Below, piece by piece: positions 3,001 to 31,720 of a stretch of DNA of 64,000 bases. The position numbers and the translations under genes are program-made. The notes under the pieces are model-generated. The model searched no databases. It was not told where the DNA came from and saw only the letters and a program-made list of their open reading frames with translations. The DNA comes from Bugula neritina (lineage: Eukaryota > Animalia > Bryozoa). The stretch spans positions 11,852,698 to 11,916,697 of the forward strand of contig OZ037765.1 of the NCBI GenBank assembly GCA_964035545.1, written 5' to 3'. Positions within the stretch are counted from its first letter, which is position 1. Each line of letters opens with the position of its first letter.

Positions 3001-6000
3001 TAAAGTAATGTAAAGATGACAATTATCACAAGCACTTATAATATATAAGGTACACAAACCGTCTGATGTATGTCATCCGATGATACCCATTGCTCTAATA
3101 TCCGCAAAGCACATTCATTATAAGGCAAATCTATGAGTCTTTGCCATTGACCGTGATTCATATAAGGATGAGCATAGCTTGCAACAAAAAGCCCTCCATC
3201 TGGTGCTAACCCTTGAATAGCTACGTTTAGAAAGTTATAGATCTTTGAGAAAGATTTATCTCGAGTTGAAATATAACCTACAACAACAGTAACGTCAACG
3301 TAAGCACACATATAACTAGCAACAGTGTAATTGGAATTTATCTTGCCGTTTAAATACCAAACAATGAAAATATGGTAAAACTGAAATATCTACATAAATA
3401 TGTTTAATAAATTGGAACTTTACCTTACCTGACTTAGCCTGAAAGTTTGTGTAAGCCTTATATACTTTCTCGGTAATCGATGAAACAGTGTCATTAGGTT
3501 CACATATAACTCTGATGTCATAGTGCTTTTCATAAAACTGTCTCCGACAATGCAATATATCTTCCATGTTAGCATCTAATTACCAGAATTTCTATTAGTT
3601 CTTAAACGAAATAGAGCTAGTAAAGTCTTTTAACTGAAAGTAAACTAAAAAATGAAAGCATAAAATAATGTTGAAACAGAGAGATGAGTGACTGAGCATG
3701 AAGTAAATGGCACTTGAAAACTTAAACTCTTAACAATATACAATGTGTACAACAGGGCACGAGATTGTAAAAAAAAATATATAAAGAAATTGATGTAATA
3801 TATTACATTGATTTCATTGCTTCAACACAAAGGTAGAACGATAAAGAATGAAAGTTAGGTAAATAAAATTACCTTCATTGAATCCCACAATCCTATTGAC
3901 CTTCATAGCCGACAGTCGATTCAGAATATCATTTTCATAAACATCCAGATATATGATAACTCCTACATGTTTACAAAACGCACTCAATATTAATTCTGCA
4001 TGAGCTCCATGGCAAACTCATCTTCCTCACAAGTGCAATCTATTTCAATGGCTACAAAACTATAACAATACCTCATAAGCATGTTGACTCTACCAAACTA
4101 AATTACATCATTGTAAATTCAACTGTAGATGCAAATCAAGCACCTCGACATCTTATAATGGCGGAATGCTTGACATGGATACCAAACAGAAGTCCAGGCT
4201 AAAGATTAATGTGCACCAACCTGGTATCAGAGAGGTGATTTTATAGCACATACCTAATCTTTTGGCATGAGCCATTGCATCATCATTTATTGGTTGAGAA
4301 CCTGTTAATGCCACAACAGTTGTGACTGGCTTAAACTCCAAAAATACCTGAGCTTCCAATTCTAAAAATGCTTTGTCTCCAACTTCTGCCAACTGCAAAT
4401 GAAAAAAGTTTGAAATGTATCTAAGAGAGATCTATGTAGTCTGTGAATACCACTACCACAGGTGAGTAAATGGAAAAACAAAGTAAATGCATATACTCAT
4501 TTTACAAGGAAGCAGCCGTGGTCTAGGGGTTAGAGCGCTTGCCTAGTAAACACTAGGGCTTGAATTCGAGCCCAGACAAAGGCCATTGGTGATGTTAGTA
4601 GAGCATCCAGCCATAAATGCTCCTGTGCCTCATTTAAATAAGTCCTTATACACTTTAACAAAAAACCTTTCCATCAGATGTTTTCTCAAAGGGATAGCGA
4701 CCATAAACTTGCGTGAGTTTAAATATTCATTTTACATTGGTTGAAGTATCCTGATAAAACTATTAGTGGGGGTGCCAACATGCAAAAATGGGCGGGTGGA
4801 GCACATCAATACTAACCTTTGTTGCTATATATCACTGCAAAGCCAACATTCTACTGATCTCAGATCTGCGAGTACCTTTTTTGTATCTGGGGGGGTTCTC
4901 TCGTGAGAGGGGTGGATATACAGGGTTCAGCATTTTTCAAGGGGGGACTATGGAACTCTAAATATTTAATTTTCTGAGTAGTTTAAGTTTGACATTAAAA
5001 ATATTTTCAAGGAATGTTATACACATATGAAACTTTCTCTAACAAAAGTTTGGACCAAAAATAAAAAAGTGGGCGGAGCCTATAATATGACAAACTACAT
5101 TTTTGCATATGCCGGATATTCTCTAAACTGCTACTTTTCTGTTCTAGCATTTAGAATGTTGATTTTTGGTATGAAAATACTCTATTGTGTTCTAATAATG
5201 CTCTCCGATTTTCATTACGTTCTGAACTATATAACATCTTTCCCAACCATGACAAATAAAAAACATAAAACGGGAGTTATCTCCTCCGTTAAAAATTATT
5301 GCATTTCTACCCAATAATATTGCTCTTTGTTGATAGGAACAACATCAGCATGATAAAAATGTATTCTTAGCGTATTTATATTAGCTTATTGACTTATTTT
5401 CAATCATTGATTACGATCAATACTATTGAGTATTAATATTCAATATTTACTGTATAAATTGAGTGTCAGCAATAATTAACAGACCACTAATATTCGATTT
5501 TTTTATCCATAAGTATAGTAACATAAAATATGGCTCATAAAAAAGTAATATTATGATTTCAGCATCACAAGCAATTACTATGCTCTTTTATATCAGATAT
5601 TGGTAGACATTTGTAATTGTATTTATTTATAAATAAGATAGTATTTAAAATTTTAATTTACAATAGATCAAGCTTTATTACAAAGTTTTGTTATCTCTAG
5701 CGTTTATATACCAAATTAAATATATTATAACTCTTCATCAGAACTGTGTTTGTTGCCATCATCATCATAATCAGGCTCTTTGTTTGAAAAAGAAGACTGG
5801 CCACTTTCGTTGTTGCAATCGAAACATTCACATAAACCACAGCATTTCATCATCAGGCGCTTGCATTTGCATGCTTTACTCTTACAGCCTGCTTTTTTGC
5901 ATTTACATGCTGTTAAAATCACATCTGCGTTGCTCTCAAAATCATATTTTATTGGAGTCAAGTTGGTATCCCAACCATGGTCAAAAATTGGCTGATGAAG

Positions 6001-9000
6001 TAAAATAGGTGTAAAAGAAAGTTGCCAAAGTGTAACTTGATAATTGGCTCGTTTTACGTGATATTCTAGGGAATTCCTACTAGGTGGTAGCTGTGCTTCA
6101 CTGGAGACATTTTTTAAAGCCAATATTTTATATCTTGCTTCAGTAATATCATCATAGGCACCATATAGGTTGGAGACAAATCATTCACACTCTAAGTATG
6201 TTTCTTCTGATACTGGGGACCAATCATTAGAACCTAAAGACAGATTATAGCTTTCCTTTTCAAGTACCTCCAAAGCACGCTTTTTAGATATTCGGAAGAT
6301 AGAACTTACTGAGTCACAACCTGTAAGTGCATGGAGTGATAATAGATTCTTGAGAACTTTTTGTAGATTTTTTTGGCTGATTCAAAAAGAGACATATATC
6401 TTCTGTGACTCCCCATTCCAACGAAGATTACTACATCTTTATTAGCCTGCTCAGTTAAAACATTACTAAGATGATGTTAAGCGCAATAATAGCAACATTG
6501 GTATCTACTGATCTTATTACTACCAAATCGTAATCACTCAGTGCATCAGCTGCATGAAGGATTAATCTCAAGTCTGCTTCATCATGATTGGATTTCAATT
6601 TGTTACAATTTTAACGATAATGGTTTTGCAGAACACAGACTTCTTTGGCGCTACACACTAAAAATGTACCAGCTGGAATTTTCTCAATATGTCTTCTCCA
6701 TGCACCTTCACTATGTAATCTACCAACTCATTTTTGTTGTGAATATTGCTCAGAAAAGCACTCCAGTTTTTAGGAACAGGCAGGTTGTTATGAATAATGG
6801 AAATAGAGCACATCTATTGGGCACCCCGTCTAATACGCTCTTGTGCTTTAATTGATGTTTCAGAATACACGTCAAACACTACATCAACCTTTGTATATCC
6901 TTTGCCACATTCAAGAAATATTTCCAACATCTTCAGAGCATAGCTATAAAAAGTGCCTGATGTTTTTGTCGAGTGAAGTATGCACATACCATCAATAATG
7001 ATCGATTTGTTGGTGGACAGTTGACTATCATCATTGGAGACCCTGTTTCCAAGATATTTCTGTTCCAAAATATGCATTAGTTGCAATTTGCATGTTTTTC
7101 TCATCTGTCCGTTTTCAGTAAATAGAGCAAGAGGAATGGGACCAATTTTTTTCTCTAGAACTGTATGCAAATCTTTGGCACTTTTGGCACTTATGAGAAG
7201 TTTAGCAAATGATATTTTAGGAACATTTGGTTTAATGGCCGGTTGAAGTGATTTAGCCACAAAGTCAAAGGAAGGGATTTTAAGCCGGTGAATAGCAGTG
7301 TAAAATGGTTTTATTGTATTCAAAAGTCTATCTTGAAAAAACTTTTGAGCCATAGCAGTCACTATTGACAAGAAGGTCTCCGCATCGGGACTTACTCCAG
7401 TAGCAATATTAATAAGTTCAGTTGAAGTATTGCTAAACAACTTAACATCAAACTGCTGCAATGTAAAAAGAATTGCTTGTGTATCAATCTCATCCGTCAT
7501 AGTTGTAATGATTGTGTATTCCTTGTGTAGTGTTGATGACTGTGAGGCTATTTGGCAAAAATCCTTTTGCAAAGAAAGCAGTTGGGCTCTGATATGACTA
7601 GTTAAGAATCATTTTGTCCGAGCTTCTTCATGGTTGCTAATGCCAATAATGCCTCCAGATGTTTTACTGTCTCGGTTCAAAGTTTGCTCCAAGACTTGAT
7701 CTGGAGCCATACCTGCAATTTTTTTCCTGTCCTGTTTACGGTGAATGAACCCTTTGCAAACATTCCATAAACTTCTGGAGTAGATTCAGGCAAATTTAGC
7801 ATATCAATAAGGTATATAGGCAGCCACCTTGAGTAGTTTGTGCGATCATATGCAAAAAATACTGGTAGCATTGCCTGCATACTGTCCAAATATAATTGCC
7901 AGTTGCCACTACGCTCAGCTCGAATAAATCCCAACATGGCTTCTACTGCATGAAGGTAGGAATTCCAGAACATTGAAAGGTTAGATTTTAATTTAGTGTC
8001 AGAATCAAACTTTTTTATAGCAGTAGCAACTTTATCTGCAACAGTGGTCCATTCACGCAAGTTATCGTCAATAGAAATACGTATTATGAGACTCTAATGG
8101 GTCAAACTGATCATTTTATTGAAGCCGTTCCGAAAGAAATTTTAGTTTCTGCCTTGATATTGCCTCATACAAAATCTTGTGTGCCCGTACACCTCTGTTA
8201 TTATGCTTACCACATAGCACCTGTTTCACTGTAACTTCAGAATATATATCACTGTGTACAAGAACTTGGGCGAGGCCGCTTGATTTTACCATTTTGCCAA
8301 GTGCTGCCATGTAATTCATCAAGATATGAAAACCGCCCATTCGAATTATTGTGTTTGAAAATTCAGTTGGTTTGTTCCATTGAATCTCTTTGGCCATCTT
8401 GTAGATAGCTTGGTCAAATGTAATTACTGAATGTTTCTGATTTAAAACTTTCATAGTTTTCTTTAGCTGCAGAAGGATTGTATAAATTGTTGATGGATCT
8501 GTTGATGGTGCATTAATCATTGGGCAATACCCAATGACTGATCTTTTATTAGCTTCTGTGGCAACCAAATTTCTTACATTAAAGCTACTCCAGCTGGGGC
8601 AGTTATGTGTAGAAGGACTTATATCCAATTGAAATAGTTTGATTGGGGCAAGTCTTGCCAATAGCCATGCTGTATTTAGATTACATGAATCCTCAAGTGA
8701 CTTTTTCATATTCAGCAATGTCTCTTGACTAAGTTTTGTGATAAAATATGATTTTGAGAGCAACGCAGATGTGATTTTAACAGCATGTAAATGCAAAAAA
8801 GCAGGCTGTAAGAGTAAAGCATGCAAATGCAAGCGCCTGATGATGAAATGCTGTGGTTTATGTGAATGTTTCGATTGCAACAACGAAAGTGGCCAGTCTT
8901 CTTTTTCAAACAAAGAGCCTGATTATGATGATGATGGCAACAAACACAGTTCTGATGAAGAGTTATAATATATTTAATTTGGTATATAAACGCTAGAGAT

Positions 9001-9947
9001 AACAAAACTTTGTAATAAAGCTTGATCTATTGTAAATTAAAATTTTAAATACTATCTTATTTATAAATAAATACAATTACAAATGTCTACCAATATCTGA
9101 TATAAAAGAGCATAGTAATTGCTTGTGATGCTGAAATCATAATATTACTTTTTTATGAACCATATTTTATGTTACTATACTTATGGATAAAAAAATCGAA
9201 TATTAGTGGTCTGTTAATTATTGCTGACACTCAATTTATACAGTAAATATTGAATATTAATACTCAATAGTATTGATCGTAATCAATGATTCAAAATAAG
9301 TCAATAAGCTAATATAAATACGCTAAGAATACATTTTTATCATGCTGATGTTGTTCCTATCAACAAAGAGCAATATTATTGGGTAGAAATGCAATAATTT
9401 TTAACGGAGGAGATAACTCCCGTTTTATGTTTTTTATTTGTCATGGTTGGGAAAGATGTTATATAGTTCAGAACGTAATGAAAATCGGAGAGCATTATTA
9501 GAACACAATAGAGTATTTTCATACCAAAAATCAACATTCTAAATGCTAGAACAGAAAAGTAGCAGTTTAGAGAATATCCGGTATATGCAAAAAAGTAGTT
9601 TGTCATATTATAGGCTCCGCCCACTTTTTTATTTTTGGTCCAAACTTTTGTTAGAGAAAGTTTCATATGTGTATAACATTCCTTGAAAATATTTTTAATG
9701 TCAAACTTAAACTACTCAGAAAATTAAATATTTAGAGTTCCAAAGTCCCCCCTTGAAAAATGCTGAACCCCTGTATATCCACCCCTCTCACGAGAGAACC
9801 CCCCCCAGATACAAAAAAAAAGGTACTCGCAGATCTGAGATCAGTAGAATGTTGGCTTTGCAGTGATATATAGCAACAAAGGTTAGTATTGATGTGCTCC
9901 ACCCGCCCATTTTTGCATGTTGGCACCCCCACTATATGCCACAAACT

Positions 9948-10028
<81 letters not shown>

Positions 10029-10657
10029 ATTATACATGTACACAATACACATATACATAATATAGTACATTAATGATGAAACTGTTTTAAAAGCTAAAAC
10101 GTAAAACTGAACCTTTTTAGACACTGGCATGTTCCAATATGGTTCTAAAACATCATCATCAATGTCAGCCATTTTCATGCCTAAACGTTGAGCTAAAGGT
10201 TTCACCACAGAAGATTTTCCAGCTCCAGGACAGCCCATTAAAAAGATATTATTCTGTAAACAAGAACGGAGGCAATCTATCAGCTCATTAAAATACATTG
10301 CATATATATTTCACACATTTCAACAACGAAATAAAATTGAAAGAAGTTTCGACAAGTTTATGAGAGTATCATGCATTGAATCATGAATAAACAGAAGTGG
10401 TACTGACAGCAAATATGACTTTGCACACAAAAATAAGAGAAAAAAAAGATTATTTAATAAAACAACATTTTATTCTAATGAAATTATTTATTTCTCACGC
10501 TGCTTTTAATTTTTTCTGGTGTACTGGCAAGATTTTCAGACATGTGCATCGAAGCAATATGACATCTTTGATAGAATTGGCGATGTTGATGCTTGTATAG
10601 CTTTCGAGTTATTGCTGGGAAAAACCTTGCGATAGAAAATCCTGTACATGGAGCCAT
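1..10657 (-). CDS. THNSL1: Threonine synthase-like 1 (N-terminal shikimate-kinase-like P-loop domain fused to PLP-dependent threonine synthase domain); multi-exon, 3' end beyond window
   Basis: Hand-spliced GT-AG exons (minus): 10657-10499 (MAPCTGFSIARFFPAITRKLYK..., Arg/Lys-rich, mitochondrial-presequence-like), 10253-10113 (NIFLMGCPGAGKS Walker A), 4392-4254, 3962-3873, 3575-3429, 3277-3060 (QGLAPDGGLFV), 2796-2597 (LELFHGPTASFKD, PLP-lysine motif), 2204-2134 (VATSGDTGGA), 1832-1734, 1255-1153, 778-613 (SANSINFARLLPQ...VPTGNFGN), 358-257, 51-<1 (SPAIDILKSSNL). Confidence 0.92.
4511..4720 (+). mobile_element. tRNA-derived SINE (degenerate), intronic
   Basis: Pol III A-box-like TGGTCTAGGGG (~4518) and B-box-like GAATTCGAGCC (~4562), followed by a non-tRNA body (..gagcatccagccataaa..); no clean cloverleaf. 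Confidence 0.55.
4764..5952. repeat. Left arm of ~1.19-kb near-perfect inverted repeat
   Basis: Reverse complement of 8741-9934. Mirror ORFs 5027-5317(+)/9376-9666(-) and 5688-6008(+)/8712-9005(-) are near-identical over the shared arm. Confidence 0.95.
5725..8740 (-). pseudogene. Academ transposase (DDE + XPG-like nuclease + Cys8 finger), 5'-truncated, with stops and frameshifts
   Basis: Collinear ORF pieces 8116-8740, 7677-8060, 6814-7572 and 5725-6123 (LPPSRNSLEYHVKRANYQ...CKCKKAGCKSKACKCKRLMMKCCGLCECFDCNN). Confidence 0.85.
8741..9934. repeat. Right arm of ~1.19-kb inverted repeat (inverted copy of the element's 3' end, including Cys-finger codons)
   Basis: ORF 8738-8968(+) repeats the last ~75 aa of 5725-6123(-); identity stops abruptly at 8741/5952. 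Confidence 0.95.
9947..10023. repeat. (TA)n microsatellite
   Basis: Run of ~35 TA units. Confidence 0.95.
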
Positions 10658-11995: not shown

Positions 11996-12553
11996 GACAC
12001 AAAAACAGTAAAAAAAACAATTGGGATGTTTAGTGAGGTTTGTCTGACGAAACTGCAAAAGAGTGGGATGGTAAGAATGAAATTGTCATCACCATACACA
12101 TTTTTTGTTAAAAATAGCAAAAGAGAGAGTTTTAATAATCAGTTGACAATGATTGCCTGACCGCAACAGGTAGGTGGTAAAACCCATAAACCTTCCGTAA
12201 TTCAGTAAGTGAAGTTACTACAGTATTTTATAATTCATCATATTAGTTCAACCAAGTCTACCTCAGCGGATGAGGTGACTCTTGAAACAAAAAGAGAGAC
12301 CATGAACCGTGCTTGTGAATAAATACTATGATCAACATTTACCTTTTTGGTGTTGAGCAGAACTTCTTTTTTTTACTTGAAAAAATCCGCAACTCTTCCT
12401 TGTGCTATGGTGATACTGATGAGTGAACACCTGAGATTTTTCATATCTCGTTGGTACAGCGAATTAATGAGAACAATCGAAATGCTAATGGAGGTAGACA
12501 TTGCCGAATATGGAAAATTCATTTGAAGACTTATGTAATCTAAATACAGCATG

Positions 12554-12902
12554 TGTGATAGATTGTGCCTTGGTTTTGTTGTTTGCTAAATAATGTTAAT
12601 TGAGGTCCGATGTTCGGAGTTCCGAGTTTCGGCTTGTCCGAAGATCGGTTCTCCCGATCTTCGGCCCTGCCGAATTTCGGAGCTACCGAACTTCGGACCA
12701 CACACACAAAAGATTCTTTGTTCTATGTTCTTTTGTTCGCTGTATATAAAAGCAGGCGAGTTACGGTGTAGAGGCAGTCTACTACTGGAGCTCGCCTGGA
12801 CAAGTTGATATTATTTTTCTACTATAATAAACATTTTGAACTCTACTATTTCAACCTATCTTGTTCTGCACTAAGTTACATTCAACCCACAAGTTTATCA
12901 CA
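12554..12902 (+). repeat. 5' LTR
   Basis: TATATAAAAG at 12743-12752, AATAAA at 12826-12831, TG...CA ends. Confidence 0.95.
12607..12696. promoter_or_regulatory. Array of six CCGA-N3-TCGG palindromes in U3 of the 5' LTR
   Basis: Starts at 12607, 12622, 12638, 12654, 12670, 12686, ending ~46 bp upstream of the TATA box. The structure is seen directly; regulatory function is inferred. Confidence 0.7.
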
Positions 12903-12903
12903 T

Positions 12904-12922
12904 TGGTGGCAGCGGTGGGATT
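12904..12922 (+). promoter_or_regulatory. Primer binding site, complementary to the tRNA-Leu 3' end
   Basis: TGGTGGCAGCGGTGGGATT one base after the LTR end. Confidence 0.85.
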
Positions 12923-12948
12923 CTGAATACTAGTGTAAGACGAACAAG

Positions 12949-15900
12949 ATGGCTCCAGGGGGTGAGGAGGCGACCCCTGGAGCAGCCGCGACACCAACCC
13001 TCACTGTGGAGGCTTTGGTGACAGCCCTCCGAGAGTTGCAGGGGACAGGGCAGGCGCCACCTGGTGACAGGTACCGCCTCAGTCCCCCGACTTTTGGAGG
13101 TGATGGGGATGTGGAGCAATTCATCCGGGAGTTCCAGGACGTGGCCACCATCGCTGAATGGCCAGTGCGGGTGCGCGTCCTCCAACTCCGGGCCTGTTTG
13201 ACAGGCCGGGCCAAGAGTTTCGCTCTGGGGCCCGATGAAGCACACATCTTACGTGCCCTAAGGGCCAGGTTTGGCGTGACGTCAGAAGAGGCGTCTGACC
13301 GCCTACAGGCCCTGAGAAGGGACAGGAGGACATCGTTGGAGGACCACGCCAACGTGGTGGAACGCTTGGCCCAGGCTGCTTTCAGCCATGCTACCGGAAC
13401 GGAAAGACAGCGCCTGGTGTACAACGCGTTTTTCCGGAGTATAAATCATCCTGACTTCCAACGCTATTGGATGGCTGGCAAGGTGGGCAGCCTGGACGAA
13501 GCTCTGGAAACGGGTAAAGCCTATTCCCAGGTAGAGGAGCTTCAAGGACCAAGATTCACCGCCCGCCAGGTGGTCGATGAGGAGACCACCATGCCTGCTA
13601 AACCTCAAGTAGCGGCCGCAGCAACTGAGTCATCAGAGCAGACTCAGCTCACCATGTTGGTAGACATGGTGAAGGGCCTGCAGGCTACAGTGACCGAGTT
13701 GCAACGAGGCCAGACGGGTAGAAGGCTCCCGGAGTGCGGGACGACCCTACCCGCCCCTCTCAACTCACCTGCTGGGGGTGCGGAGACACTGTCCGAAAGG
13801 CAATCTGCCTTTAAACAACCAGGGCTCACGGTAACTTCCGCCAACCGTGGGCCCCAAGCCAATCCCACCCGGGACAGGGCTCAGAGGAGGACTGAGAGGA
13901 CCTCGATGGAGCTTGCCGATACCGAGTGGCAAGCACCGCGGAGATCTCGGAGGCCGAAAGGTCAGCCCGATCCTCCCGCCATGCCACTCGAAGCCCGGGT
14001 GAAGTCAACAGACGTAGGATGGCAGGCACCTCGGAGATCTCGGAGACCGCAAGGTCTACCCGATCCTCCGGCCTGGCCACTCCAGAACCGGTTCGCGGGA
14101 TTGCCCGAGGAGGTTGTGGAGGAGGACTCAGCTTACTCGCAAGAGTACCCCAAGCTACCCTCCCAACCTCAGAAAACCCCCGTCGTCTCCAAGACGAAAA
14201 GGAGGCCCGCAGTGCGGACCCAAGTTGTGTCTCCCCCAGAGACTGACCGCTCCAGGAGCACCCAGCCGTACGGAAGAGGCTACTTCCTGCCCGGAAAAAT
14301 TTCGGGTAAAGCTGCCACATTCCTACTGGACACTGGGTGCACTACCAACCTGTTGAGTAGGCGTCTCTTCGACACTCTTGGTGCACGAGAGCGGGCGAGC
14401 CTTGAGCCGTATGAAGGTGCGCATGGTACGTTGGCGGACGGATCATGCATTCCTTTTTACGGCGTCATTTCACTGCCTGGACGCGTTCGTGATCAAGCGA
14501 TTCACGAGACGTTCATAGTCAGCCAGCTGAAGAAAGACGCCATCCTGGGAATGCCGTTTCTGGAGAAACACCAGTGTCGCATGGATTTCCAGAAGTCGGT
14601 GGTGGTGATGGCTGTAAAGGAACTTGTCTGTGTGGACAAGTTTGGCAGGCCCTTGGTGGGCGGAGTCCAGGTAGTGCGGGACTGCACAGTTCCGGGAAAA
14701 TCCAAGGCGACTCTCCGCTGCAGAGTCAACTGCAAGGAGATCGCCGGCCTGGGGGTGGTTGAAGGAACGCACGGAGCGATCCGACTAGCAAACAGCCTGA
14801 ATCGGCTAGACTGTCGGCAAGAGCTCCTCGTGCAGTGCATCAACCCCTTCACGGAACCTGTCCGATTATCGGCCGGAGCGATGGTGGGGAAGTACCACTC
14901 CATCCAGGAGACAGATGTGGGTCTGGCACTGGAAACAGTAACCGACACCCAGGGAAACCCCCCTCACACCCGCCGAGGAGCAGTCCCGGAGCACGTGGCT
15001 GACCTGTATAGTGGAGCATGTGGAAACTGCACGAGTAGTACTGAACGCCAAGTACTGGCTCAACTACTCGCGGAGTACAGTGAAGTCTTCAGCCGTGGCG
15101 ATGGAGACATGGGGCTGACCAAGGTTATTTCCCACGAGATACCCCTGGCAGCCGGCACCACTCCCATCAGGCAGCCCACCCGACGTCTAGGCCCAGAGAA
15201 GGAGGTGAGCCGACAGGTACAGGATCTTCTCGACCGGGATCTGATTGAGCCTGCCCACGGTGCGTGGAGCTCTCCCGTAGTCCTGGTCAAGAAGAAGGAT
15301 GGTAGCTGGAGATTCTGCGTGGACTACCGCAGACTCAACAGCGTTACCATCCAGGACGCCTACCCTCTCCCGCGGATAGATGAGTCTCTGGATGCCCTCG
15401 CGGGTAGCAAGTACTTCAGTACTTTGGACCTGCTTAGCGGGTACTGGCAAGTGCCCCTAAGTCCTGATGCCCAGGACAAAGCAGCGTTCATCACTCGCGA
15501 CAGGCTCTGGAAGTGGAAAGTACTGCCATTTGGACTGACGTCCGCCCCGGCAACTTTCCAACGGCTGATGGAGCAGGTCCTCAGTGGATTACACTGGAAG
15601 ACCCTCCTCATCTATCTAGATGATGTCATTGTCATCTCCTCAGACTTTTCGACTCATGTCAGTCGTCTGCGGGAGGTCTTTGACCGTCTCCGCGCAGCCG
15701 GACTGAAATTGAAGTCCTCTAAGTGTGCACTCCTGCAGCCGGAGGTCACGTACCTGGGCCATGTGGTTGGCCGCGACAGGGTCGCTACCGACCCGGAGAA
15801 GGTACAGGCTGTGAAGGAGTGGGCTGTCCCCCGCGACCTCCCTGAGTTGCGCGCATTCCTGGGCCTAGTAGGTTACTACCGGCAGTACATACCTGGGTTC

Positions 15901-16674
15901 GCAGGGGTGGCTCAGCCGTTAAATTGGCTGACCGCAAAGGGGGTCCGGTGGCAGTGGACACAGGAGGAGCAGCAGGCATTCGGCCACCTCAAGCAACGGC
16001 TAATGGAGGCGCCAATCCTGGCGTACCCTAATCCAGCTAAGGAGTACATCCTGGACACCGACGCCAGCGACCACAGTATGGGAGCTGTCCTGTCCCAAGT
16101 CCAGGGTGGAAGTGAGGTGGTTGTGGCTTACTACAGCAAGACTCTCGCGGCCGCCGAGAAGAACTACTGCACTACTAGGAAGGAGCTCCTAGCCGTAGTC
16201 AAGGCGGTCAAGCACTTCCGGCCATATTTGTATGGGAGAACGTTCCGATTGCGAACAGACCATGCATCATTGATATGGCTGTGTAAACGTGCGGAGCCTT
16301 CGAGCCAAAGAGCTCGTTGGCTGGAGATTCTTGCTGAGTTCTCCTACCGGATAGAACACCGTGCCGGCCCGAAGCACGGGAATGCCGACGGCATGAGTCG
16401 TCGGCCGGTTGAGGACTGTAAGCAATGCCTGCATATAGAGAGACGGGACGGGGGACCCGCTTGCCTTGACGTAGAGACAGAATTAGGGGAGGGCGCCGTC
16501 TATCGGTGGAAGCACGGCCATCTTCTGACCGAAACCCACTCTGACGACGTCCAGGCACTTCATGCCAACCCCACTCTGTATCAGAACGTCAAGGAACCGT
16601 GCCGACTCCAGGAGACGCTACCCGGCGCGGTAGCAGACATTTTTCTGGGCCAAGAGGGAGGGCCGACGACCTAG
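12949..16674 (+). CDS. Gypsy Gag + protease + reverse transcriptase + RNase H (open in this copy until a frameshift near 16640)
   Basis: FLLDTGC (aspartic protease), WRFCVDYRRLN, LPFGL, YLDDVIV (RT), ILDTDAS and HGNADGMSR (RNase H). Confidence 0.93.
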   Translation: MAPGGEEATPGAAATPTLTVEALVTALRELQGTGQAPPGDRYRLSPPTFGGDGDVEQFIREFQDVATIAEWPVRVRVLQLRACLTGRAKSFALGPDEAHILRALRARFGVTSEEASDRLQALRRDRRTSLEDHANVVERLAQAAFSHATGTERQRLVYNAFFRSINHPDFQRYWMAGKVGSLDEALETGKAYSQVEELQGPRFTARQVVDEETTMPAKPQVAAAATESSEQTQLTMLVDMVKGLQATVTELQRGQTGRRLPECGTTLPAPLNSPAGGAETLSERQSAFKQPGLTVTSANRGPQANPTRDRAQRRTERTSMELADTEWQAPRRSRRPKGQPDPPAMPLEARVKSTDVGWQAPRRSRRPQGLPDPPAWPLQNRFAGLPEEVVEEDSAYSQEYPKLPSQPQKTPVVSKTKRRPAVRTQVVSPPETDRSRSTQPYGRGYFLPGKISGKAATFLLDTGCTTNLLSRRLFDTLGARERASLEPYEGAHGTLADGSCIPFYGVISLPGRVRDQAIHETFIVSQLKKDAILGMPFLEKHQCRMDFQKSVVVMAVKELVCVDKFGRPLVGGVQVVRDCTVPGKSKATLRCRVNCKEIAGLGVVEGTHGAIRLANSLNRLDCRQELLVQCINPFTEPVRLSAGAMVGKYHSIQETDVGLALETVTDTQGNPPHTRRGAVPEHVADLYSGACGNCTSSTERQVLAQLLAEYSEVFSRGDGDMGLTKVISHEIPLAAGTTPIRQPTRRLGPEKEVSRQVQDLLDRDLIEPAHGAWSSPVVLVKKKDGSWRFCVDYRRLNSVTIQDAYPLPRIDESLDALAGSKYFSTLDLLSGYWQVPLSPDAQDKAAFITRDRLWKWKVLPFGLTSAPATFQRLMEQVLSGLHWKTLLIYLDDVIVISSDFSTHVSRLREVFDRLRAAGLKLKSSKCALLQPEVTYLGHVVGRDRVATDPEKVQAVKEWAVPRDLPELRAFLGLVGYYRQYIPGFAGVAQPLNWLTAKGVRWQWTQEEQQAFGHLKQRLMEAPILAYPNPAKEYILDTDASDHSMGAVLSQVQGGSEVVVAYYSKTLAAAEKNYCTTRKELLAVVKAVKHFRPYLYGRTFRLRTDHASLIWLCKRAEPSSQRARWLEILAEFSYRIEHRAGPKHGNADGMSRRPVEDCKQCLHIERRDGGPACLDVETELGEGAVYRWKHGHLLTETHSDDVQALHANPTLYQNVKEPCRLQETLPGAVADIFLGQEGGPTT

Positions 16675-18267
16675 CGAGGAACAGCAGCGGCAGGGAGACG
16701 TTGAGTTCCAACTCCTCTGTCGTCGCTGGGATGCCCTCAAGGTCAGTCCTGATGGCCTCCTGATGATAACGTTAGCAGCAGACAACCGTCAGCAGGAGAG
16801 GGACCGCGTCGTCTGTCCACGCGCCCTCCAACAGGAGCTGATCTGGGACACCCATAAGCAGGCTCATTCTGGAGTCAGTCGGGTCATCAGGTGTCTGCGG
16901 CTGCGTTGGTATTGGCCCGGAATGACTCGGGACGTACGACTGCGGGTACGGCAATGCGCGGTCTGCCAAGCTAGCAAGCATGGCCGCCCCACGGAAACCA
17001 CTGGTCGACGCCGGCTATACGCTGGTCGACCGTGGCAAGTAGTGGCGGTAGACCTCGTCGGGCCTATGCCGTTATCCGCCAGAGGGAACACCTGGATACT
17101 GGTGCTCACGGATCACTTTACCCGGTGGGAAGATGCTCTGGCTATTCCAGACGCAACAGCCCCCACAATGGCCCGGACCCTGGACCAACATGTGTTCTGT
17201 TACCTCGGTTTACCCGAGCAGATACATACAGACCAGGGTGCCCAGTTCCAGTCCCAGCTCATGGGAGACTTCTGCCGGATATGGGGGGTGAACTAGAGTC
17301 GGACCACCCTATATCACCCGCAAGGGAACGAAGTCGTCGAGCGGAACAACAGGATGTTGGGTGACGCCCTCAGGAGCCTGCTCCTTGGTCGAGGTCAGGA
17401 AGAATGGGACAGGGTGCTGCCGCAAATCATGCGGGCTTACCGCAGCACACCACACACCACCACACAGGAGACCCAAAACTTCCTGATGCTAGGCCGGGAA
17501 ACGCGGGTTCCGGAACACCTGACATACCCTGTTCCCGCCCCCGAGTCGCCGGTACATGAGTACGTAGAGAGACTGATAGAGATCATGGGTAAAGCCCATG
17601 ACGCACTGCGGGCCCAGCAGTGGCAGATCCGCACGGAGGAGTCAGAAGAGCCCCATTGTATCAGGTGGGAGACTGGGTCTGGATGGTGATCCATCGTAGG
17701 CGACACGGACAGTCGGCTAAACTTCAGCCCAAGTTCGTAGGTCCCTACTGCGTTGTGGAGGTGCTGGCCAACCACACATACCGTGTGGAGCGCTCTGGAC
17801 AGGTCTCAGTTCAGAGCGAACAGCGCCTGAAACCATACCATGCCAGCCCAGACGCGGTGGGTCAGGCTCCACCCCTCCTGGAGCCAAACCGCCAGCCTAA
17901 CCAGCGGGGGAGGGTCACCCGACCCCGGGAGGTGGAAATTGTCATCCGAAGGGAGGCAGAGCAAGAGCAGGCTGCCCTACGAGAACAGTTGGAACAACAA
18001 CAAAGGCAGGAGCAGCAGCAGCAACACGCCCCAGAGCCGCCGCCCCTCTTGGGGGAGGACACCCCCACCCGTATTACGGGTGAAGGCGGGGACCCTCCTA
18101 CTGTGGCAACTCAAGAGCAGCTGGCACCACCAGCACTTGCACCGCCAGAAAGGAGCCAGAGAGTGAGGAAACCACCCAGATATCTGGCAGACTATCACAT
18201 AGGACACCTAGGGTTGCCCCCCCCCCAAGTGGGAATCCATCTGTCCAGGGCCATTATTCCTCCTTAG
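16675..18267 (+). pseudogene. Gypsy integrase, disrupted (TAG at 17294-17296, frameshift near 17650)
   Basis: HHCC zinc motif (HKQAHSG...CAVCQ), AVDLVGP, IHTDQG, VERNNR, GPY motif (PKFVGPY). Confidence 0.9.
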
Positions 18268-18340
18268 TAAATTCCTCCAACATGCTGGAGATTCACTACA
18301 AAAAGAAACAGTTGCAAACCGAAATTCGGAGGGCACGCGA

Positions 18341-19741
18341 TTGTCCGAGTTGTCCCTTCAAAACTCGATGGGAATTCCCCACGATCGCGTAGCAGGTAAA
18401 AATATTGAAACACGAGGCTCGGCCATTTGCACTGCTACTAACCCACGGGTAACACGCGATTTTAAAGCTGAACATTATAATCGAATTGATAACAAAGTGG
18501 ATATGGGTATTACTCTTCCCGGTAACAACACTACGAACACAGGTATTTCATTAGAGTCAGAGCCTCCCGTACCGGAGTCTGACTCAACTGTAATTAATTG
18601 GGCTAGTTTAGATTTGTTGGAATCTAATTTATTAACGGAGGAAGTCGATGTGGGTTTTGAAGAAGACTCTCTAAATGAGTTTTTATTAGACCAGGACATA
18701 GGGTCAGTCACTCTCCATGACTCACCTCGGCTCCCTACCACCCACAAAGTAGCCTATAAGGCGATGCCGAATTTCGGCGACGGCAAGACCGGCCTTACTC
18801 GGCCTCTGCTGTCTATTGTAGACACTGCAATGGAGTGTGATGAGGTGGAAGTCAGTCGAGTCGACTCCCCCCCTCCACCAGCCCCCGTGACGGCTCCTTG
18901 CAGCCCGCGGGTCGCCACAGACCGGACTGAGGTGCTATCCACCATCAAAAGTGACCCTGTCGCCAACCCAGTTGAGATACAATTAGCCGCCGGGGAGGAA
19001 CAGGGAATACTAGGCGGTGTGCCCTCCTCTACTCAAGCTGAAGACGGTGACACCCCCACCTTGGCTCTACCCCAGGCACTGGTTGCCCGCCAGTCCTGGG
19101 TCTCTCACGACACTAATCAGAAGATTAGTGAAGCATGCGGGGCAGCGGGCAACCGCATCTGCCGGCAATGTCGGAGAAAATTCTCCTCTACCCGGCGGTT
19201 GCGTGTTCACGCCCCACAACACTTCATCAACGTATTCTGCCCTTGCGGCGAATACTCCTACCAGCGGGATTATGTGCTGCGCCACCAGCGCATCTCGCGC
19301 TGCCACCCAGGTCACGTGTTCGCCGTGGATCAGGCCACGTTTCCGGAGTTCCGGGACCTCATCCTGCCGCACGTCGCGGACCCCCACAAGCGTGCCACCC
19401 TCGGCCAGGGGTTCCCGCCATGCAGAGCAATTCGGGAAGAAGATGGAGAACCCGCCGCCGCCCTCCAACCAGCAGCCACCCAGCCTCTTCGGGTCATGCT
19501 GACAAGGGTCGGTGATGGTGCCAGACCCGGTACATCGGACCGGGACCCCCGCCCCTCGGCGGCGAGCAGACACCACCCGGAGCGCAGCACACTCCGCTCC
19601 CAACCGCAACTAGAAGAGGAGGTGCGCCACTTACGGCGCCGCGTGGCACGGTGTGAGGAAGATCTAACGCAATTACGACGGCGAATGATCCGGCTGGAAC
19701 GACGTCAGACCGACAACGATGATGGAACATGGAGGGAGTGA
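18341..19741 (+). CDS. Accessory ORF of the Gypsy element: acidic/Pro-rich region, tandem zinc fingers, C-terminal coiled coil (possibly a Pol extension)
   Basis: 466 open codons. CRQCRRKFSSTRRLRVHAPQH (C2H2) followed by CPCGEYSYQRDYVLRHQRISRCH; heptads LEEEVRHLRRRVARCEEDLTQLRRRMIRLE. No signal peptide or TM segment; first ATG at 18368. Confidence 0.75.
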   Translation: MSELSLQNSMGIPHDRVAGKNIETRGSAICTATNPRVTRDFKAEHYNRIDNKVDMGITLPGNNTTNTGISLESEPPVPESDSTVINWASLDLLESNLLTEEVDVGFEEDSLNEFLLDQDIGSVTLHDSPRLPTTHKVAYKAMPNFGDGKTGLTRPLLSIVDTAMECDEVEVSRVDSPPPPAPVTAPCSPRVATDRTEVLSTIKSDPVANPVEIQLAAGEEQGILGGVPSSTQAEDGDTPTLALPQALVARQSWVSHDTNQKISEACGAAGNRICRQCRRKFSSTRRLRVHAPQHFINVFCPCGEYSYQRDYVLRHQRISRCHPGHVFAVDQATFPEFRDLILPHVADPHKRATLGQGFPPCRAIREEDGEPAAALQPAATQPLRVMLTRVGDGARPGTSDRDPRPSAASRHHPERSTLRSQPQLEEEVRHLRRRVARCEEDLTQLRRRMIRLERRQTDNDDGTWRE

Positions 19742-19949
19742 GACCCCGTATCTCCCCGACTGGTGGCATGACATTTCTCTGTTATACATATTCATAGTCC
19801 CTTATACTATGTACTTGGTGTTTTGTTTTGTTTTGTTTTTTTTTGTTTCTCTCTTTCTTTTTTTTGTTATGTTTATTGTTGGTCTCATTGTTATTATATG
19901 TTATTATTCGCTCTCGTATCGGAAAGCACGCTTTCCGATAGGGGGTGTG

Positions 19950-20298
19950 TGTGATAGATTGTGCCTTGGTTTTGTTGTTTGCTAAATAATGTTAATTGAG
20001 GTCCGATGTTCGGAGTTCCGAGTTTCGGCTTGTCCAAAGATCGGTCCTCCCGATCTTCGGCCCTGCCGAATTTCGGAGCTACCGAACTTCGGACCACACA
20101 CACAAAAGATTCTTTGTTCTATGTTCTTTTGTTCGCTGTATATAAAAGCAGGCGAGTTACGGTGTAGAAGCAGTCTACCACTGGAGCTCGCCTGGACAAG
20201 TTGATATTATTTTTCTACTATAATAAACATTTTGAACTCTACTATTTCAACCTATCTTGTTCTGCACTAAGTTACATTCAACCCACAAGTTTATCACA
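19950..20298 (+). repeat. 3' LTR
   Basis: Direct copy of 12554-12902 (offset 7396); the third palindrome is mutated (CCAA). Confidence 0.95.
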
Positions 20299-20879: not shown

Positions 20880-22310
20880 AATAACTTAATGTAAATTTGG
20901 GCAATTCTAGATTAAAGATATTTGGTACAGAGGGCGAGAAGTAGTAGATTGCCGGAAAATGTGCCTCTTAAGGAATTAGTTGTGGATGGCCAGTTTGCCA
21001 GCACATTAGGGGACAACTCTGCGCCATTTTTATTGGCTGACAACAAAAACAATGAATGATAATATTGCTTTCATCGAAAACATGCTTGCAACAGCTCACC
21101 AACGCAGAAGCTTGGTATACGGATGGGAACTTTGACATTTCCCCTTAGTTTTAACAAGTGGTATAGCTATACAAAAATATATGAACTGCGAAATATGCAA
21201 ATTTCAAAGTTGTTTTTTTATTAATGTAAAGATGTGGTTGTTTTAGGTGTACATAATAAGAGTGCCAATAGAGCATGGCTGGAGAACAGGTATTTATGCG
21301 CTCTTACAAAGAAAAACGCAACAGTTATACGTGGAAATGCTGTGTATGGTGGTTGACGGGTGCAACAGAAGCAGGCACCATGCACCCCAGCCAAAGAATA
21401 TACACTGTGATTTTGAGACCGCAGTACAACAGGCTCAATAAAAGGTGATGCCATTTGCAATAATAAGAGGTTACTTTTATCCCTTGTGTCAGGTAAGCTA
21501 TACAACTAGTATTTTTGATAAAGAGCAACAAAGTTTGCAAGTAAATGTTAATTGTAGGGTTTTTTGTTACACATTTTTGCAGCATGCATGCGTGTCCTAA
21601 GTGTTATAAAGCAGCTGCTCCTATATTTATTTTGTAAAAGTATCCTAAAATGCTTATTAAACCACATCCTGTGAACTCAGCACAAAGTTTCTAGCAATAA
21701 TAAATTTAATTTGAACGATATAGTGGTAAAATGCAAAACACAACATAACTGGCAAATACTTTGAAATACTAAATGTTCAGCTTTTATTTGTAGAGCACGT
21801 GGTGAAAAATGCAACAGCTAGGACTGGCAGCAGCCTATCAACAAGATATCCAGTTTAAAAGATATGTTGGCAGTTTGGATGGGTTAGCATTTTTGCCATT
21901 GGCAGATGTGAGACAAGGAAGGGCTCGTTTGACACCAAACACTCCACAAGGTAGCGGTAATGGGAACTATCTCTTGTCAAATGCTTGTCAATATTTTTAT
22001 ATAACAAAATGAGATCATGAAAGTACTAATATTATCTAATGGGTCTGGAATACAATGAACTATGATGCATATACTATATGATATACAAACTGCATGCTTG
22101 TTGTATACCAGTAAATATTTAATCTTAAATTGAATTATTGTTAATAACTTCAGAGCTTAAAGAGCTGGTGGAATATTTTGAGAGTATATGTCACTGGTAA
22201 ACGCTGCGCTGCCAGGATACCAGCACATGCAATCACCAATATTAGAATGTTTCAGCCGATGTTTCCGCCAAAAGTTTGGATTGTATGTAACCAACTACAA
22301 AGAACCAAAT
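20880..22310 (+). pseudogene. Intron-containing MULE/Mutator transposase remnant (copy 1)
   Basis: WYTDGNF, IYALLQRKTQQLY, IHCDFETAV, MQQLGLAAAYQQD...LAFLPLADV, ELVEYFESIY; pieces separated by gtaag...tag introns (e.g. ~21493-21793). Confidence 0.75.
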
Positions 22311-22369
22311 CTGACAAATCGTAATAACACCACTATTAAGCAGGCTGGACTGTTTCAGTAGAGAAGGCT

Positions 22370-23535
22370 GCTTCCTGAGTCGGCTGTGATTCGTGGTGGC
22401 CATAGACGCCAGGTGTCAAAGTCGGCTGTGGGGTAAGACAAGAAAACCCAAGCATGGAACAGATGAAATGGCAGGAGATGTGCTGGTGAATGAAGAACAT
22501 AAGTTTGAAAAGAAAAGAACAGAAAGTTAGCTAATCATGTAGGAAAACTTTACCGAGATGGAGCCAAAGGAGGGATGATTGAGGTTTCAAAGACAAGCAT
22601 GTTCCAAAAGAACTGTAGCACAGGAGTAAAGGTGACCAAATGCTCTTCCTGATATTACCAGTGCCTGGGGCATGAGCCCCATGATGTGTGTCAACAAAAG
22701 ACTTTACAAGTAAGCTAGTTACAGCTGCTTATTTCATCTATTTATATATTTTAGACAGTTCAGAAAGTAGAGTATTTTGTGTCTCTGTTGCTCTATGTTT
22801 TGAATGTAAAAGATTACTGAGCAAACGTGCAGCTTGAAAAATTTAGTTAAGCAGATAAAAGTCAAATCTAAATTAAGTTTTCTTACATGAACAAGTTATG
22901 GATGAGCAGAGCTCGCGGGAAAACGAGGCGTTTGAGGAGGGAAACCATAATCTTTATCGAAGAGATAATGGAACAGAAAAAGTTCGCAGTAATGGGCAAT
23001 TATTGATATGAAACCAAAAGGTGGAGATAATGAAATGGGAAACCTTGACAAAAGTTCTACGAGGCATTGGAGACAACCAGCTGAAGAAGGGATAGTGGAA
23101 GTAGAAGTGGTAATGCAGGTTTGAAAAACAGGCTAGTTCATAAAAATCAGACTGAATATGAAATCGAGAAGGCAGTCTTGGAAAAAGATAATGGAGCAAA
23201 AATAAAAAACGGACCTGTTGAAAAAGGGGAAATTGATAAGATCTGAAGGAAGAATTTTTAGACATAAAAAAAGTGCGCTGGTGAAAGTTGAAGATGAACA
23301 AATGACAAAAAGCTGACAGTAAAGGAATAAAAGTGCTAATGAATTTGTCAAAAACGAACCAAAAAAGTGAAACAATGGAGACACTGAGAGGAATGCTTTT
23401 AAAATGTAAATAAGAAAGAACTTCCAGAAAATGTACCAATTGACAAATCAAAAACTGAACAAAACAGGGTGATAACAAAGCTATAAAAGAAGTCAGTCAA
23501 ACTGAGAATGGCAAGGAAAGTGAAAATTGGAAAAT
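22370..23535 (+). repeat. Duplicated segment (copy A) containing a decayed Lys/Glu-rich reading frame
   Basis: Collinear similarity to ~25960-27100; ORF-track translations of both copies overlap (e.g. HQRTFFMSKNSSFRSYQFPLFQQV). Confidence 0.85.
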
Positions 23536-23549
23536 GGTACGGTCCAGTC

Positions 23550-28850: not shown

Positions 28851-30039
28851 TAAAGACACAAAAACAGTAAAAAATAACAATTGGGATATCTCGCGAGGTT
28901 TGTCTGAAAAAACTGCAAAAGATTGGGATGGTAAGAATGAAATTTTCATCCAACACATTTTTTGTTAAAAATAGCAAAAGAGAGAGCTTTAATAATCAGT
29001 TGACAATGATTGCCTGCTATGCTATCATTAGTCGATGATAAATTAATGTTGGAGATCTTACAATAGCAAACCAACTAGGCGGAGCTGCTTCCACTAAAAC
29101 TCCAATATGGAATTGATGGAAATATCTTGGTTGGTAGAAGGATGTTAATAAATCATTCGACTAAGTCATAAGAAGCATCAGCAAAATTGTATTCATCATT
29201 GGGAACATGAGTAAAAATGATCATAACTAGAAAACCATCACATCTAAAGGTTTAAAAAAGTGATAGTGAGGGATTCTTTCAGTATTTCAGGATGTCAGTT
29301 AAAAATATTAACTCTTCATTAACTTTGGTTGCTCTATCAATAACAAAAAAATATTGATAAATGCAAAAGTATCTTGAAAACAAGAATAAGTTAGTCAACA
29401 ATCATTGGGAACATGATTAAAAATGATCATAGCTAGAAAACCATCGTTTAGCGGAACATCTTTTTTTAATTCGAAAAAATCAGCAACTTCATGGTGATAC
29501 TGATAGGCCAATACTTGAGAGTTTTCATATCTCGTTGGTACAGCGAACGAATGAGAACAATCGAAATGCTTATGGGGGTTGATGTTGCTGAATATAATAA
29601 ACAGAAGAAAACGTAGAAAAGTAATTAGCTGGATCTATCCTATATATAAGCAACAACCTAATTCGGGAGCTAAAAAGTGATGGTGAGACATTTATATCAC
29701 AATAAGCGATCTAAGCAGTGCTTTAAATGTCAAGGATGCGGCAAAACTACACCAGAAAATGCAAAAGATTGAAGACCTAATGAGTGCAACATCTACCAGT
29801 CTCACTGCTAATTAAACTCCTGTTGAAGAAAGGTTTGAGAAGCTTGAACAAATCTATGCTGATGCGTAAAGGAAAAATGCTGCGAATGTATAAAAAAGCT
29901 GTTCTTGAGTTCTTGAAGAGAGCAAATGGTAAGAATGAAATTGTCATCATCATACACCTTTTTTGGCAATAGTAGACCAGAGGATGCAAAAATTGAAGAC
30001 CTAATGAGTGCAACATCTATCATTCTCACTGCTCCTGTT

Positions 30040-31720
30040 TTTTGAGCACAGTGATATATATTCTGCAGTTACACTATAACAGTTGCTATGTGGTAAGCAT
30101 TATAACAGAAGTGTACGAGCACAAAAGATTTTGTATGAGGCAATACCACAGCCCAAAATAGAATCTCTTTTGAAATGGCTTCAAGAAAATGATCAGTTTG
30201 ACCCATTAGAATCTCATAATATTTCTATTGATGGCAATTTCTGTGAATGGACCACTGTCGCAGATAGTCGCTACTGCTAAGAAGTTTGACACTGACACTA
30301 AATCAAAATCTAACCTTTCAATGTTTTAGAATTCTCACCTTCATGCAGCAGAAGCGATGTTGGGGTTTATTCAGGCTGAGCACAGTGACATTTGGTAATT
30401 GTATTTGGACAGAATGCAGGCATGCTACCAGTACTTCTTGTGTATGATTGCACAAACTACTCAAGGTGCCTGCCTATATACCTTATTGATATGCTAAGTT
30501 TGCTTGAACCTGCTCTAGAAATATACGGAATGTTTGCAAAAGGTTCATTAACTGTAAAGAGAACTGAAAATTGCTTTAATGGTAGGCTCCAGATTAAATG
30601 TTGGAGCAAACTTTGAATCGAGACAGTAAAACACCAGGAGGGATTATTGGCAACAATGAAGAAGCTCGGGCAAAATGGTTCTTAAGTAGTCATATCAGGT
30701 CCAACTGCTTTCTGTGCAAAAATATTTTTTCCAAATAGCCTCAAAGTCATCAACATTACACAATAAAGCCACGATTATTACAACTAGGAAGGATGAGATT
30801 GATATACAAGCAATTTTTACATTACAGCAGTTTGATGTTGAGTTGTTTAGCAATAATTCAACTGAACTTATCAATATTGCTACTGAAGTCTTGCTGCAGA
30901 GACCTTTTTGTAAATAGTGAGTGCTATGGATCAGGTAACAGAGCTAGCTCAAAAGTCTATTCAAGATAAACTTTTGAATGTAATAAAACCATTTTACCTT
31001 GCTATTAACTTACTTAAAATTCATTCCGTTGACTCGGTAGCTAAATCACATCAACTGACCATTCAATCAAAAGTTCCTAAGACATTGTTTGCTAAACTTC
31101 TCATTAATGCCAAAAGCCGAGAATTAAATTAGCATACAGTTCTAGAGAAAGAAATAGGTCCCATTTTTCTTACTCTATTCACTGAAACAGACAGATGAAC
31201 ATGCAAATCACAACTAATGCATTTTTTGGAACAGAAACACCATGGCAACAGGCTCTACCAAGATGATAGTCAATTTTCCAGCAACAAATCGATCATTATT
31301 GATGGTGTGTGCATACTTCATTCAACAAAAATGCCAAGCACTTATTATAATTACGCTCTGAAGATGTTGGATATGCGGTAAATGGTATATAAGGGTTGAT
31401 GTAGTGTTTGAATGTGTATTATGAAACCTCAATTAAAGCACACGGCATATTAGAGGAGGTGCCGAAGAGATGTGGTCTAATTCCATTATTCATGACAGCT
31501 TGCCAGATGCCAAAAACCGGAGTGCTTTTCTGAGCAACATTCACAACAAAATTGAGTTGAGAGATTACATAGTGAAGGTGTGGAGTAGACATACTGAGAA
31601 AATTCTAGTTCGTACAGTTTTAGAGTGCGGCGCCAAGGAAGTTTGTATTCTGCAAAACCACTATCGTCACAATTGTAACAAATTGAAATCCTATCAGAAT
31701 GAAGTAGACACGAGATTTAG
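30040..31720 (+). pseudogene. Second, more decayed Academ transposase copy (no termini seen)
   Basis: LCGKHYNRSVRAQKILYEAI, YDCTNYSRCLPIYLIDML, FTLQQFDVELFSNNSTELINIAT; collinear with 6560-8260(-). Confidence 0.85.

What the first reader, a model, noticed from the sequence alone, without database searches (positions are those of the whole stretch)
4764..9934. Fold-back Academ transposon in a host intron: a candidate 'Mu killer'-type hairpin silencer
Seen: the arms 4764-5952 and 8741-9934 are ~1.19 kb and near-identical. They contain the last ~75 transposase codons (Cys finger), the 3' UTR and the terminus. The transposase frame is cut at 8740, so the N-terminus, promoter and true 5' end are replaced by an inverted 3' end, yet the TAT TSD is intact. 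The element lies in the THNSL1 intron between exons 10113-10253 and 4254-4392. Established: maize Mu killer is an inverted partial duplication of MuDR, transcribed from a flanking promoter into hairpin RNA that silences the family. Inference: THNSL1 pre-mRNA could fold into a ~1.2-kb stem with a ~2.8-kb loop, feeding Dicer/ADAR and silencing this Academ family in trans; a two-3'-end element may also still be mobilisable.
Basis: partly seen in the sequence, partly recalled or inferred. Interest (0 to 1): 0.78.

Follow-up and report, generated by a model that had tools for sequence, protein, structure and literature searches.

The report
Amplified mirror-ended Academ transposon copy
This 5.2-kb intron insertion is one of an estimated 15-30 copies of a broken DNA transposon whose front end is replaced by a mirror image of its back end; it likely spread by borrowing a relative's transposase, a pattern already known from mariner transposons, and a silencing role remains untested.

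Summary
The structure is real: 1.19-kb arms (99.2% alike), TAG termini, a TAT duplication, inside a THNSL1 intron whose exons join in frame. It is not an assembly artefact and not a one-off locus. A contig from another study bridges the 8740/8741 junction. In three DNA runs, arm depth is 1.96-2.06 times loop depth and loop depth is 17-31 times flank depth, and many different flanks follow the terminus. So the two-3'-end form is the dominant, amplified form of the family. The unrearranged upstream frame was seen only in two contigs of one run, one at single-copy depth and 93% alike. It joins at a 2-nt overlap. None of 22 full-length relatives carries an inverted ORF piece. Best reading: a non-autonomous AcademX family made by 5'-to-3' end replacement and moved in trans, like Rhodnius mariner Rpmar49. 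Mu-killer-type silencing is untested. The hairpin did not stop amplification, covers the 3' end rather than the promoter, and RNA-guess contigs show no overall A>G excess (one 3-site cluster aside). The scan noted a similar Tc1 case in another genome. My searches found no Academ precedent.

The parts
4761..4763 (.). left target-site duplication TAT
   Evidence: X1 contig 4621-4788 spans flank and terminus with no difference
4764..5952 (-). left arm = native 3' end: last 75 codons (Cys finger), 961-nt 3' UTR and terminus, poly(A)-like hexamers at 5679/5657/5627
5953..8740 (-). loop: single-orientation middle of the transposase gene, with frameshifts and stops
   Evidence: depth half that of the arms in 3 of the 3 runs scored
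5725..8742 (-). 5'-truncated AcademX-type transposase remnant (about residues 435-1448 of P0001); lacks the N-terminal C/H finger and the conserved D365-E372-D375 block
   Evidence: FEN1/XPG fold in relative P0005
8741..8742 (.). rearrangement junction; AT fits both the upstream frame and the copied 3' end (2-nt overlap)
   Evidence: X6 loose end behind 8742 continues the frame; X16 contig 8560-9364 bridges the junction
8741..9934 (+). right arm = inverted copy of the 3' end standing in for the 5' end
9935..9937 (.). right target-site duplication TAT
10113..10253 (-). THNSL1 exon upstream of the element (shikimate-kinase-like P-loop)
4254..4392 (-). THNSL1 exon downstream of the element; intron 5720 nt, 546 nt without the element
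30039..31717 (+). older truncated relic of the same transposase family, 82% DNA identity to 6564-8264
12496..12553 (-). 58-nt relic (88% to 8666-8723) at the edge of a Gypsy insertion

Best explanation
The element is one copy of a multi-copy, non-autonomous AcademX-type DNA transposon family whose 5' end is replaced by an inverted 1.19-kb copy of the 3' end; it likely arose once by a repair or template-switch event at a 2-nt overlap and was likely moved by a transposase supplied in trans. Shown: the structure, the shared junction, two arms per loop across individuals, many flanks, and loss of the first ~435 codons. Inferred: the origin (abortive gap repair, or a deletion between two neighbouring copies), the helper (the rare parent or a sister family sharing the terminus), and that one copy landed in the THNSL1 intron and is spliced out. 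Any copy transcribed through could fold back into double-stranded RNA. That would be a by-product shared by the family, not a special function of this locus.
For: Junction bridged by an 835-nt contig of X16 (another study; 24 other letters). A deletion 8690-9009 across the same junction is seen in X2 and X6. Median arm/loop contig depth is 1.96, 1.97 and 2.06, and loop/flank is 17, 26 and 31, in X1, X3 and X6 (from contigs listed; X2 was laid but not scored). Different flanks lie behind 9934-9939: 14 contigs in 4 listed rows for X1 and 12 in 2 rows for X6. The upstream frame survives in 2 X6 contigs, one 1202 nt at depth 23.5 (flank depth ~25) and 93% alike. It reads in frame into the loop and matches the RESRA stretch of P0001. 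0 of 22 full-length relatives, and 0 of 70 loci, have an inverted ORF piece. 9 of 34 loci of 4 kb or more show inverted repeats bracketing the ORF, 54-409 nt long and outside it. The same anatomy, amplified by transposition, is described for Rpmar49 (PMC4678618, passages).
Against: Contig depth is not a copy number (the tool says so), and I picked listed contigs by hand, so 15-30 is rough. Flank contigs may include sister families: depth jumps over the last ~100 nt. The parent's own 5' terminus was never seen; the relic shows only ~1.1 kb upstream. The relatives are distant (30-54% identity to P0001). No X1 or X6 contig crossing the junction was among the pieces listed. No second full copy with its own TSD was read. 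Only 6 of 24 listed runs were laid.
Confidence: 0.8

Rival explanations
1. The parent natively has inverted repeats of 1.2 kb or more that overlap the ORF end (as Galileo does by 69 bp), and this family is a simple internal deletion from inside the 5' repeat to about codon 435.
For: Galileo precedent in D. willistoni (PMC4168063, passages). The parent's 5' end was not seen. The amplified product would look the same.
Against: 0 of 22 full-length relatives have an inverted ORF piece, and their repeats are 54-409 nt and outside the ORF. The only loose end listed before 8741 in X1 and X6 is the left-arm continuation (77 rows not shown).
Confidence: 0.1
2. Besides being mobile, the fold-back acts as a Mu-killer-like silencer: read-through from THNSL1 or other host genes yields a 1.19-kb stem that is diced or edited and represses the parent's transposase mRNA.
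For: The element lies in a host intron and the arms pair over 1185 bp (duplex -2044 kcal/mol). The parent junction is rare. One RNA-guess contig bridges the junction and has T>C at 8971, 8973 and 8974, absent from X1, X6 and X10. Read-through fold-back dsRNA is described for Tc1 (PMC3878927, passages).
Against: The family amplified while carrying the hairpin. Change spectra are alike: A>G+T>C is 7 of 28 in X10 and 11 of 35 in X16, against 8 of 37 in DNA run X6. The cluster has no matched DNA, the RNA label is a guess, and contigs show no strand. Poly(A)-like signals about 270-325 nt into the second-transcribed arm could cut the stem short. A rare parent is normal for an ageing family (inference).
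Confidence: 0.1
3. The fold-back is an assembly artefact.
For: The arm differences include homopolymer indels. Both arms share several letters that are in the minority in X1 contigs, which polishing could cause.
Against: The junction is bridged in an independent study, the 2:1 depth holds in three runs, and the left boundary is covered exactly in X1.
Confidence: 0.02

Closest known systems
Rearranged mariner lineages Rpmar49 and Rpmar17 of Rhodnius prolixus (PMC4678618; passages read)
   Same: 5' part replaced by the 3' part, long repeats containing transposase sequence, non-autonomous amplification (13 copies for Rpmar49), secondary deletions around the breakpoint
   Different: Academ rather than mariner; arms 1.19 kb rather than 221 bp; element 5.2 kb
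Rearranged mariner MITEs of Drosophila, Dromar7/11/28/36 (PMC4161770; passages read)
   Same: one end replaced by an inverted copy of the other, giving unusually long repeats; successful amplification
   Different: there the 3' end is replaced by the 5' end; short elements
AcademX DNA transposons (3-4-bp TSD and a nuclease, per PMC10045372 passage; XPG domain, Cys finger and TAG ends are recalled from Kapitonov and Jurka 2010, not seen)
   Same: 3-bp TSD, TAG...CTA ends, relatives of ~1450-1650 aa with a FEN1/XPG-like fold and a Cys-rich end
   Different: no 5' end, no N-terminal third of the protein, ORF broken, repeats overlap the ORF
Maize Mu killer (PMC3440606; passages read)
   Same: both ends from one end of the parent, ~1.3-kb inverted partial transposase duplication, host promoter available for read-through
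   Different: Mu killer is one dominant locus built from the promoter-bearing end, with silencing shown genetically; this is a multi-copy family built from the 3' end with no silencing shown
Galileo of D. willistoni (PMC4168063; passages read)
   Same: long repeats that take in the end of the transposase ORF
   Different: P superfamily; the overlap is 69 bp in the near-complete copy, which keeps its ORF

Membership tests
Academ (AcademX) | 3-4-bp target-site duplication (PMC10045372) | tested here: met
   TAT on both sides
Academ (AcademX) | transposase carrying a nuclease (XPG/FEN1-like; the XPG label is recalled) | tested here: met
   Model of relative P0005 (pLDDT 77) has FEN1 as best fold match, E 9e-4, then XRN, Rad2 and XPG. 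Sequence-profile hits to EXO1 were not significant. The window remnant aligns over the same region of P0001.
Academ (AcademX) | C-terminal Cys-rich finger (recalled) | tested here: met
   TCR/CXC hit in P0001, E 2.7e-6; weak in the window, E 0.013
Academ (AcademX) | 5'-TAG termini with inverted repeats (recalled) | tested here: met
   TAG...CTA; L006, L021 and L057 begin with TAG
Academ (AcademX) | match to a curated Academ consensus or DDE profile | not testable with these tools
   No Repbase or Dfam here; Pfam has no model for the Academ RNase H-like domain (PMC5751038 passage)
End-replacement non-autonomous family (Rpmar49 type) | one end replaced by an inverted copy of the other, with transposase sequence in both arms | tested here: met
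   upstream frame continues in the X6 relic
End-replacement non-autonomous family (Rpmar49 type) | several copies share the breakpoint | tested here: met
   2:1 depth in 3 runs, junction in X16, deletion across it in X2 and X6
End-replacement non-autonomous family (Rpmar49 type) | independent insertions, each with its own TSD | tested here: inconclusive
   Many flanks listed, but no second whole copy read; flanks may include sister families
End-replacement non-autonomous family (Rpmar49 type) | parent has short repeats and a different 5' end | tested here: inconclusive
   True of distant relatives; the parent's own 5' end was not seen
Mu killer-type silencer | inverted partial duplication with both ends from one end of the parent | tested here: met
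Mu killer-type silencer | duplicated end carries the promoter and 5' transposase | tested here: not met
   arms hold the last 75 codons and 3' UTR
Mu killer-type silencer | single dominant locus | tested here: not met
   loop depth 17-31 times flank depth
Mu killer-type silencer | read-through hairpin transcript from a flanking gene | tested here: inconclusive
   Intron position shown; RNA-guess contigs carry no strand and come from other samples
Mu killer-type silencer | small RNAs and heritable silencing in trans | not testable with these tools
   All 24 listed runs are contigs; none is labelled small RNA

The most novel reading that the evidence does not exclude
A mobile Mu killer in an animal: a fold-back derivative that first used its Academ parent to reach 15-30 copies and then, through read-through hairpins from copies in introns such as this one, produced small RNAs against the transposase 3' end and shut the parent down, so that the parasite of the transposon is also its off switch.
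Probability: 0.1. Interest if true: 0.65.

Novelty: new member of a known kind. Interest (0 to 1): 0.27.

Why it matters
As it stands, it extends end-replacement families from mariner to Academ, a poorly studied superfamily. It implies that two 3' ends are enough for Academ mobilisation and that no unique 5' sequence is needed in cis (inference). It also warns annotators: a consensus built from this genome would wrongly give Academ 1.2-kb repeats overlapping the ORF. If arm-specific small RNAs were found, the family would be a natural test of whether hairpin-forming derivatives end transposon bursts in animals.

Tried and rejected
No whole genome is held for this window, so copies could not be counted directly. 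The AcademH paper and Yuan and Wessler 2011 are not held, so some Academ features are recalled. The 20-sequence alignment was too diverse for a locus scan; a 5-sequence one gave 69 metagenome loci and 1 genome locus. None is the same family: best DNA identity 66-70% over short stretches. Sequence-profile searches of solved structures gave nothing significant. The empty site could not be tested: each stretch laid held one arm and one flank, and a high-copy repeat at ~4507-4720 crowded the tables. The X2 and X6 flank contigs leave the window sequence at 4483 with 24 unaligned letters, a weak hint that other individuals differ here. X10 had no cover over 8560-8794, which shows nothing. No tRNA gene was found in the window. 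Searches of earlier findings by place and by sequence gave nothing. Rejected: assembly artefact; a single-locus rearrangement; an autonomous element (N-terminal conserved residues missing, ORF broken).

Full report
Observation. The inverted repeat is as described: arms 4764-5952 and 8741-9934, 99.16% alike, with 5 substitutions and 3 homopolymer indels. Both ends begin TAGTGGGGG and are flanked by TAT. The element lies on the minus strand of a THNSL1 gene, between exons 10113-10253 and 4254-4392. These have canonical splice sites, join in frame and match an Octopus THNSL1. The intron is 5720 nt, or 546 nt without the element.

The coding remnant. A search with the loop peptide found 47 relatives among 742 candidates; the best, P0001, is 1455 aa and 60% identical. 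The window matches it from about residue 435 to 1448 in six frame segments, with stops. The missing part includes a conserved C/H finger and the conserved D365-E372-D375 block, which I infer holds the first catalytic aspartate. So this copy cannot encode a working transposase. A model of relative P0005 has FEN1 as its best fold match, followed by XRN, Rad2 and XPG. With the 3-bp duplication, this fits AcademX, the nuclease-bearing lineage with 3-4-bp TSDs (PMC10045372, passage). The TAG ends, Cys finger and XPG label are recalled, and no curated Academ library was available.

Is the junction real, and is it unique? Twenty-four runs from 10 studies hold part of the stretch; I laid six, all as contigs. 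X1 matches the flank with no difference and is probably the source, so it is not independent. X16, from another study, has one 835-nt contig across 8560-9364 that bridges the junction. X2 and X6 carry a deletion from 8690 to 9009, which removes the junction from a copy that had it. Median contig depth of arm over loop is 1.96, 1.97 and 2.06 in X1, X3 and X6, and loop over flank is 17, 26 and 31. X2 was too fragmented to score. An ordinary element would give about 1:1 (inference). Contigs with different flanks lie behind the terminus: 14 listed in X1, 12 in X6, and some in X10 and X16. Depth is a rough guide only, and some flanks may belong to sister families. Still, these lines agree that the two-armed form is the main form of the family.

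The parent. X6 has two contigs that leave the window sequence behind 8742. One is 1202 nt long, 93% alike over 8634-8742, at single-copy depth. Its letters continue the reading frame and match P0001 just upstream of the break. So the junction cuts the ORF, with two bases fitting both sides. No such loose end was among the six rows listed for X1 (77 rows in all were not shown). The parent's 5' terminus was not seen. Among 70 related loci, none has an inverted ORF piece, including 22 full-length ones. Nine of 34 loci of 4 kb or more show repeats of 54-409 nt bracketing the ORF. These are distant relatives, so native long repeats are made unlikely, not excluded.

How it most likely works. One event copied the last 1.19 kb onto the 5' side and joined it at the 2-nt overlap (inferred; abortive gap repair or a deletion between neighbouring copies, as proposed for Rpmar49). 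The product had two complete ends and was moved by a transposase from the parent or a sister family (inferred). The last ~100 nt are shared with many more elements, judging by depth. One copy inserted at TAT in the THNSL1 intron and is presumably spliced out. The window copy differs from the X1 majority by about 1% in the loop (14 letters in the 1267 nt of six listed pieces), while its arms differ from each other by 0.4% and share several minority letters. This suggests conversion between the arms, or assembly polishing; I could not tell which.

Silencing. The arms would pair over 1185 bp if transcribed whole, and read-through fold-back dsRNA is described for Tc1 (PMC3878927, passages). Against a Mu-killer role: the hairpin is carried by a family that expanded; it covers the 3' end, whereas Mu killer duplicates TIRA and 1.3 kb of mudrA at one dominant locus (PMC3440606, passages); and the RNA-guess runs show A>G plus T>C in 7 of 28 and 11 of 35 changes, against 8 of 37 in a DNA run. 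For it: the X16 junction contig has three T>C changes within four bases (8971, 8973, 8974), absent from X1, X6 and X10. That is the direction expected for editing of a minus-strand transcript, but without matched DNA it may be an allele. No small-RNA data were available.

Comparison. Rhodnius Rpmar49 and Rpmar17 are mariner lineages made by replacing the 5' part with the 3' part. Rpmar49 amplified to 13 copies, and Rpmar17 shows further deletions near the breakpoint (PMC4678618, passages). Seven Drosophila mariner MITE sublineages show the reverse replacement (PMC4161770, passages). Galileo repeats can take in the ORF end (PMC4168063, passages). Five searches with Academ terms (listings and abstract starts only) showed no Academ case; Repbase Reports, Dfam and supplements were not seen. 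An earlier scan note reports the same outcome for a Tc1 in another genome (unchecked; seen after I had recorded my reading).

Verdict. A real and neatly built element, but a new member of a known kind. Interest 0.27. The mobile-killer reading stays open at about 0.1.

Noticed in passing
window 12554-20298: Gypsy-type LTR retrotransposon with a CATG duplication and ~350-nt LTRs differing at 5 columns; one 1246-aa frame with protease/RT-like motifs read by eye. It sits at the edge of a 58-nt Academ relic.
   Followed up: partly
window 30039-31717: Older Academ relic, 82% alike, in opposite orientation to the element, lacking both ends.
   Followed up: partly
window ~4507-4720: Very high-copy short repeat, SINE-like by eye, 43 nt from the left terminus; depth over 1000 times the flank. 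ARAGORN calls no tRNA.
   Followed up: no
window 9829-9934: The terminal ~70-100 nt are far deeper than the rest of the arm, with loose ends at 9846, 9866 and 9921: sister families or MITEs share the terminus.
   Followed up: no
L020:1609-6315: A related element whose ORF match lacks the first ~19% and starts 16 nt after a 409-nt inverted repeat (90% alike): possibly an independent end replacement.
   Followed up: no
window 8971-8974: Three T>C changes in one RNA-guess contig (X16) only; editing or an allele.
   Followed up: partly
window 9646/9845: X1 contig with an opposite-strand joint at single-copy depth: a short two-ended derivative of the same family.
   Followed up: no
window 9947-10030: (TA)n microsatellite 9 nt from the right TSD.
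   Followed up: no
window 20939-27049: About 2.7-3.6-kb spaced direct duplications at 85-95% identity (D5-D20), not studied.
   Followed up: no
window ~32040-32900: Mariner-like transposase remnant, recognised by eye; not tested.
   Followed up: no
window 10256 and upstream: No THNSL1 exon upstream of 10253 was found by tblastn; the first exon and promoter were not located, so transcription through the element is assumed.
   Followed up: partly
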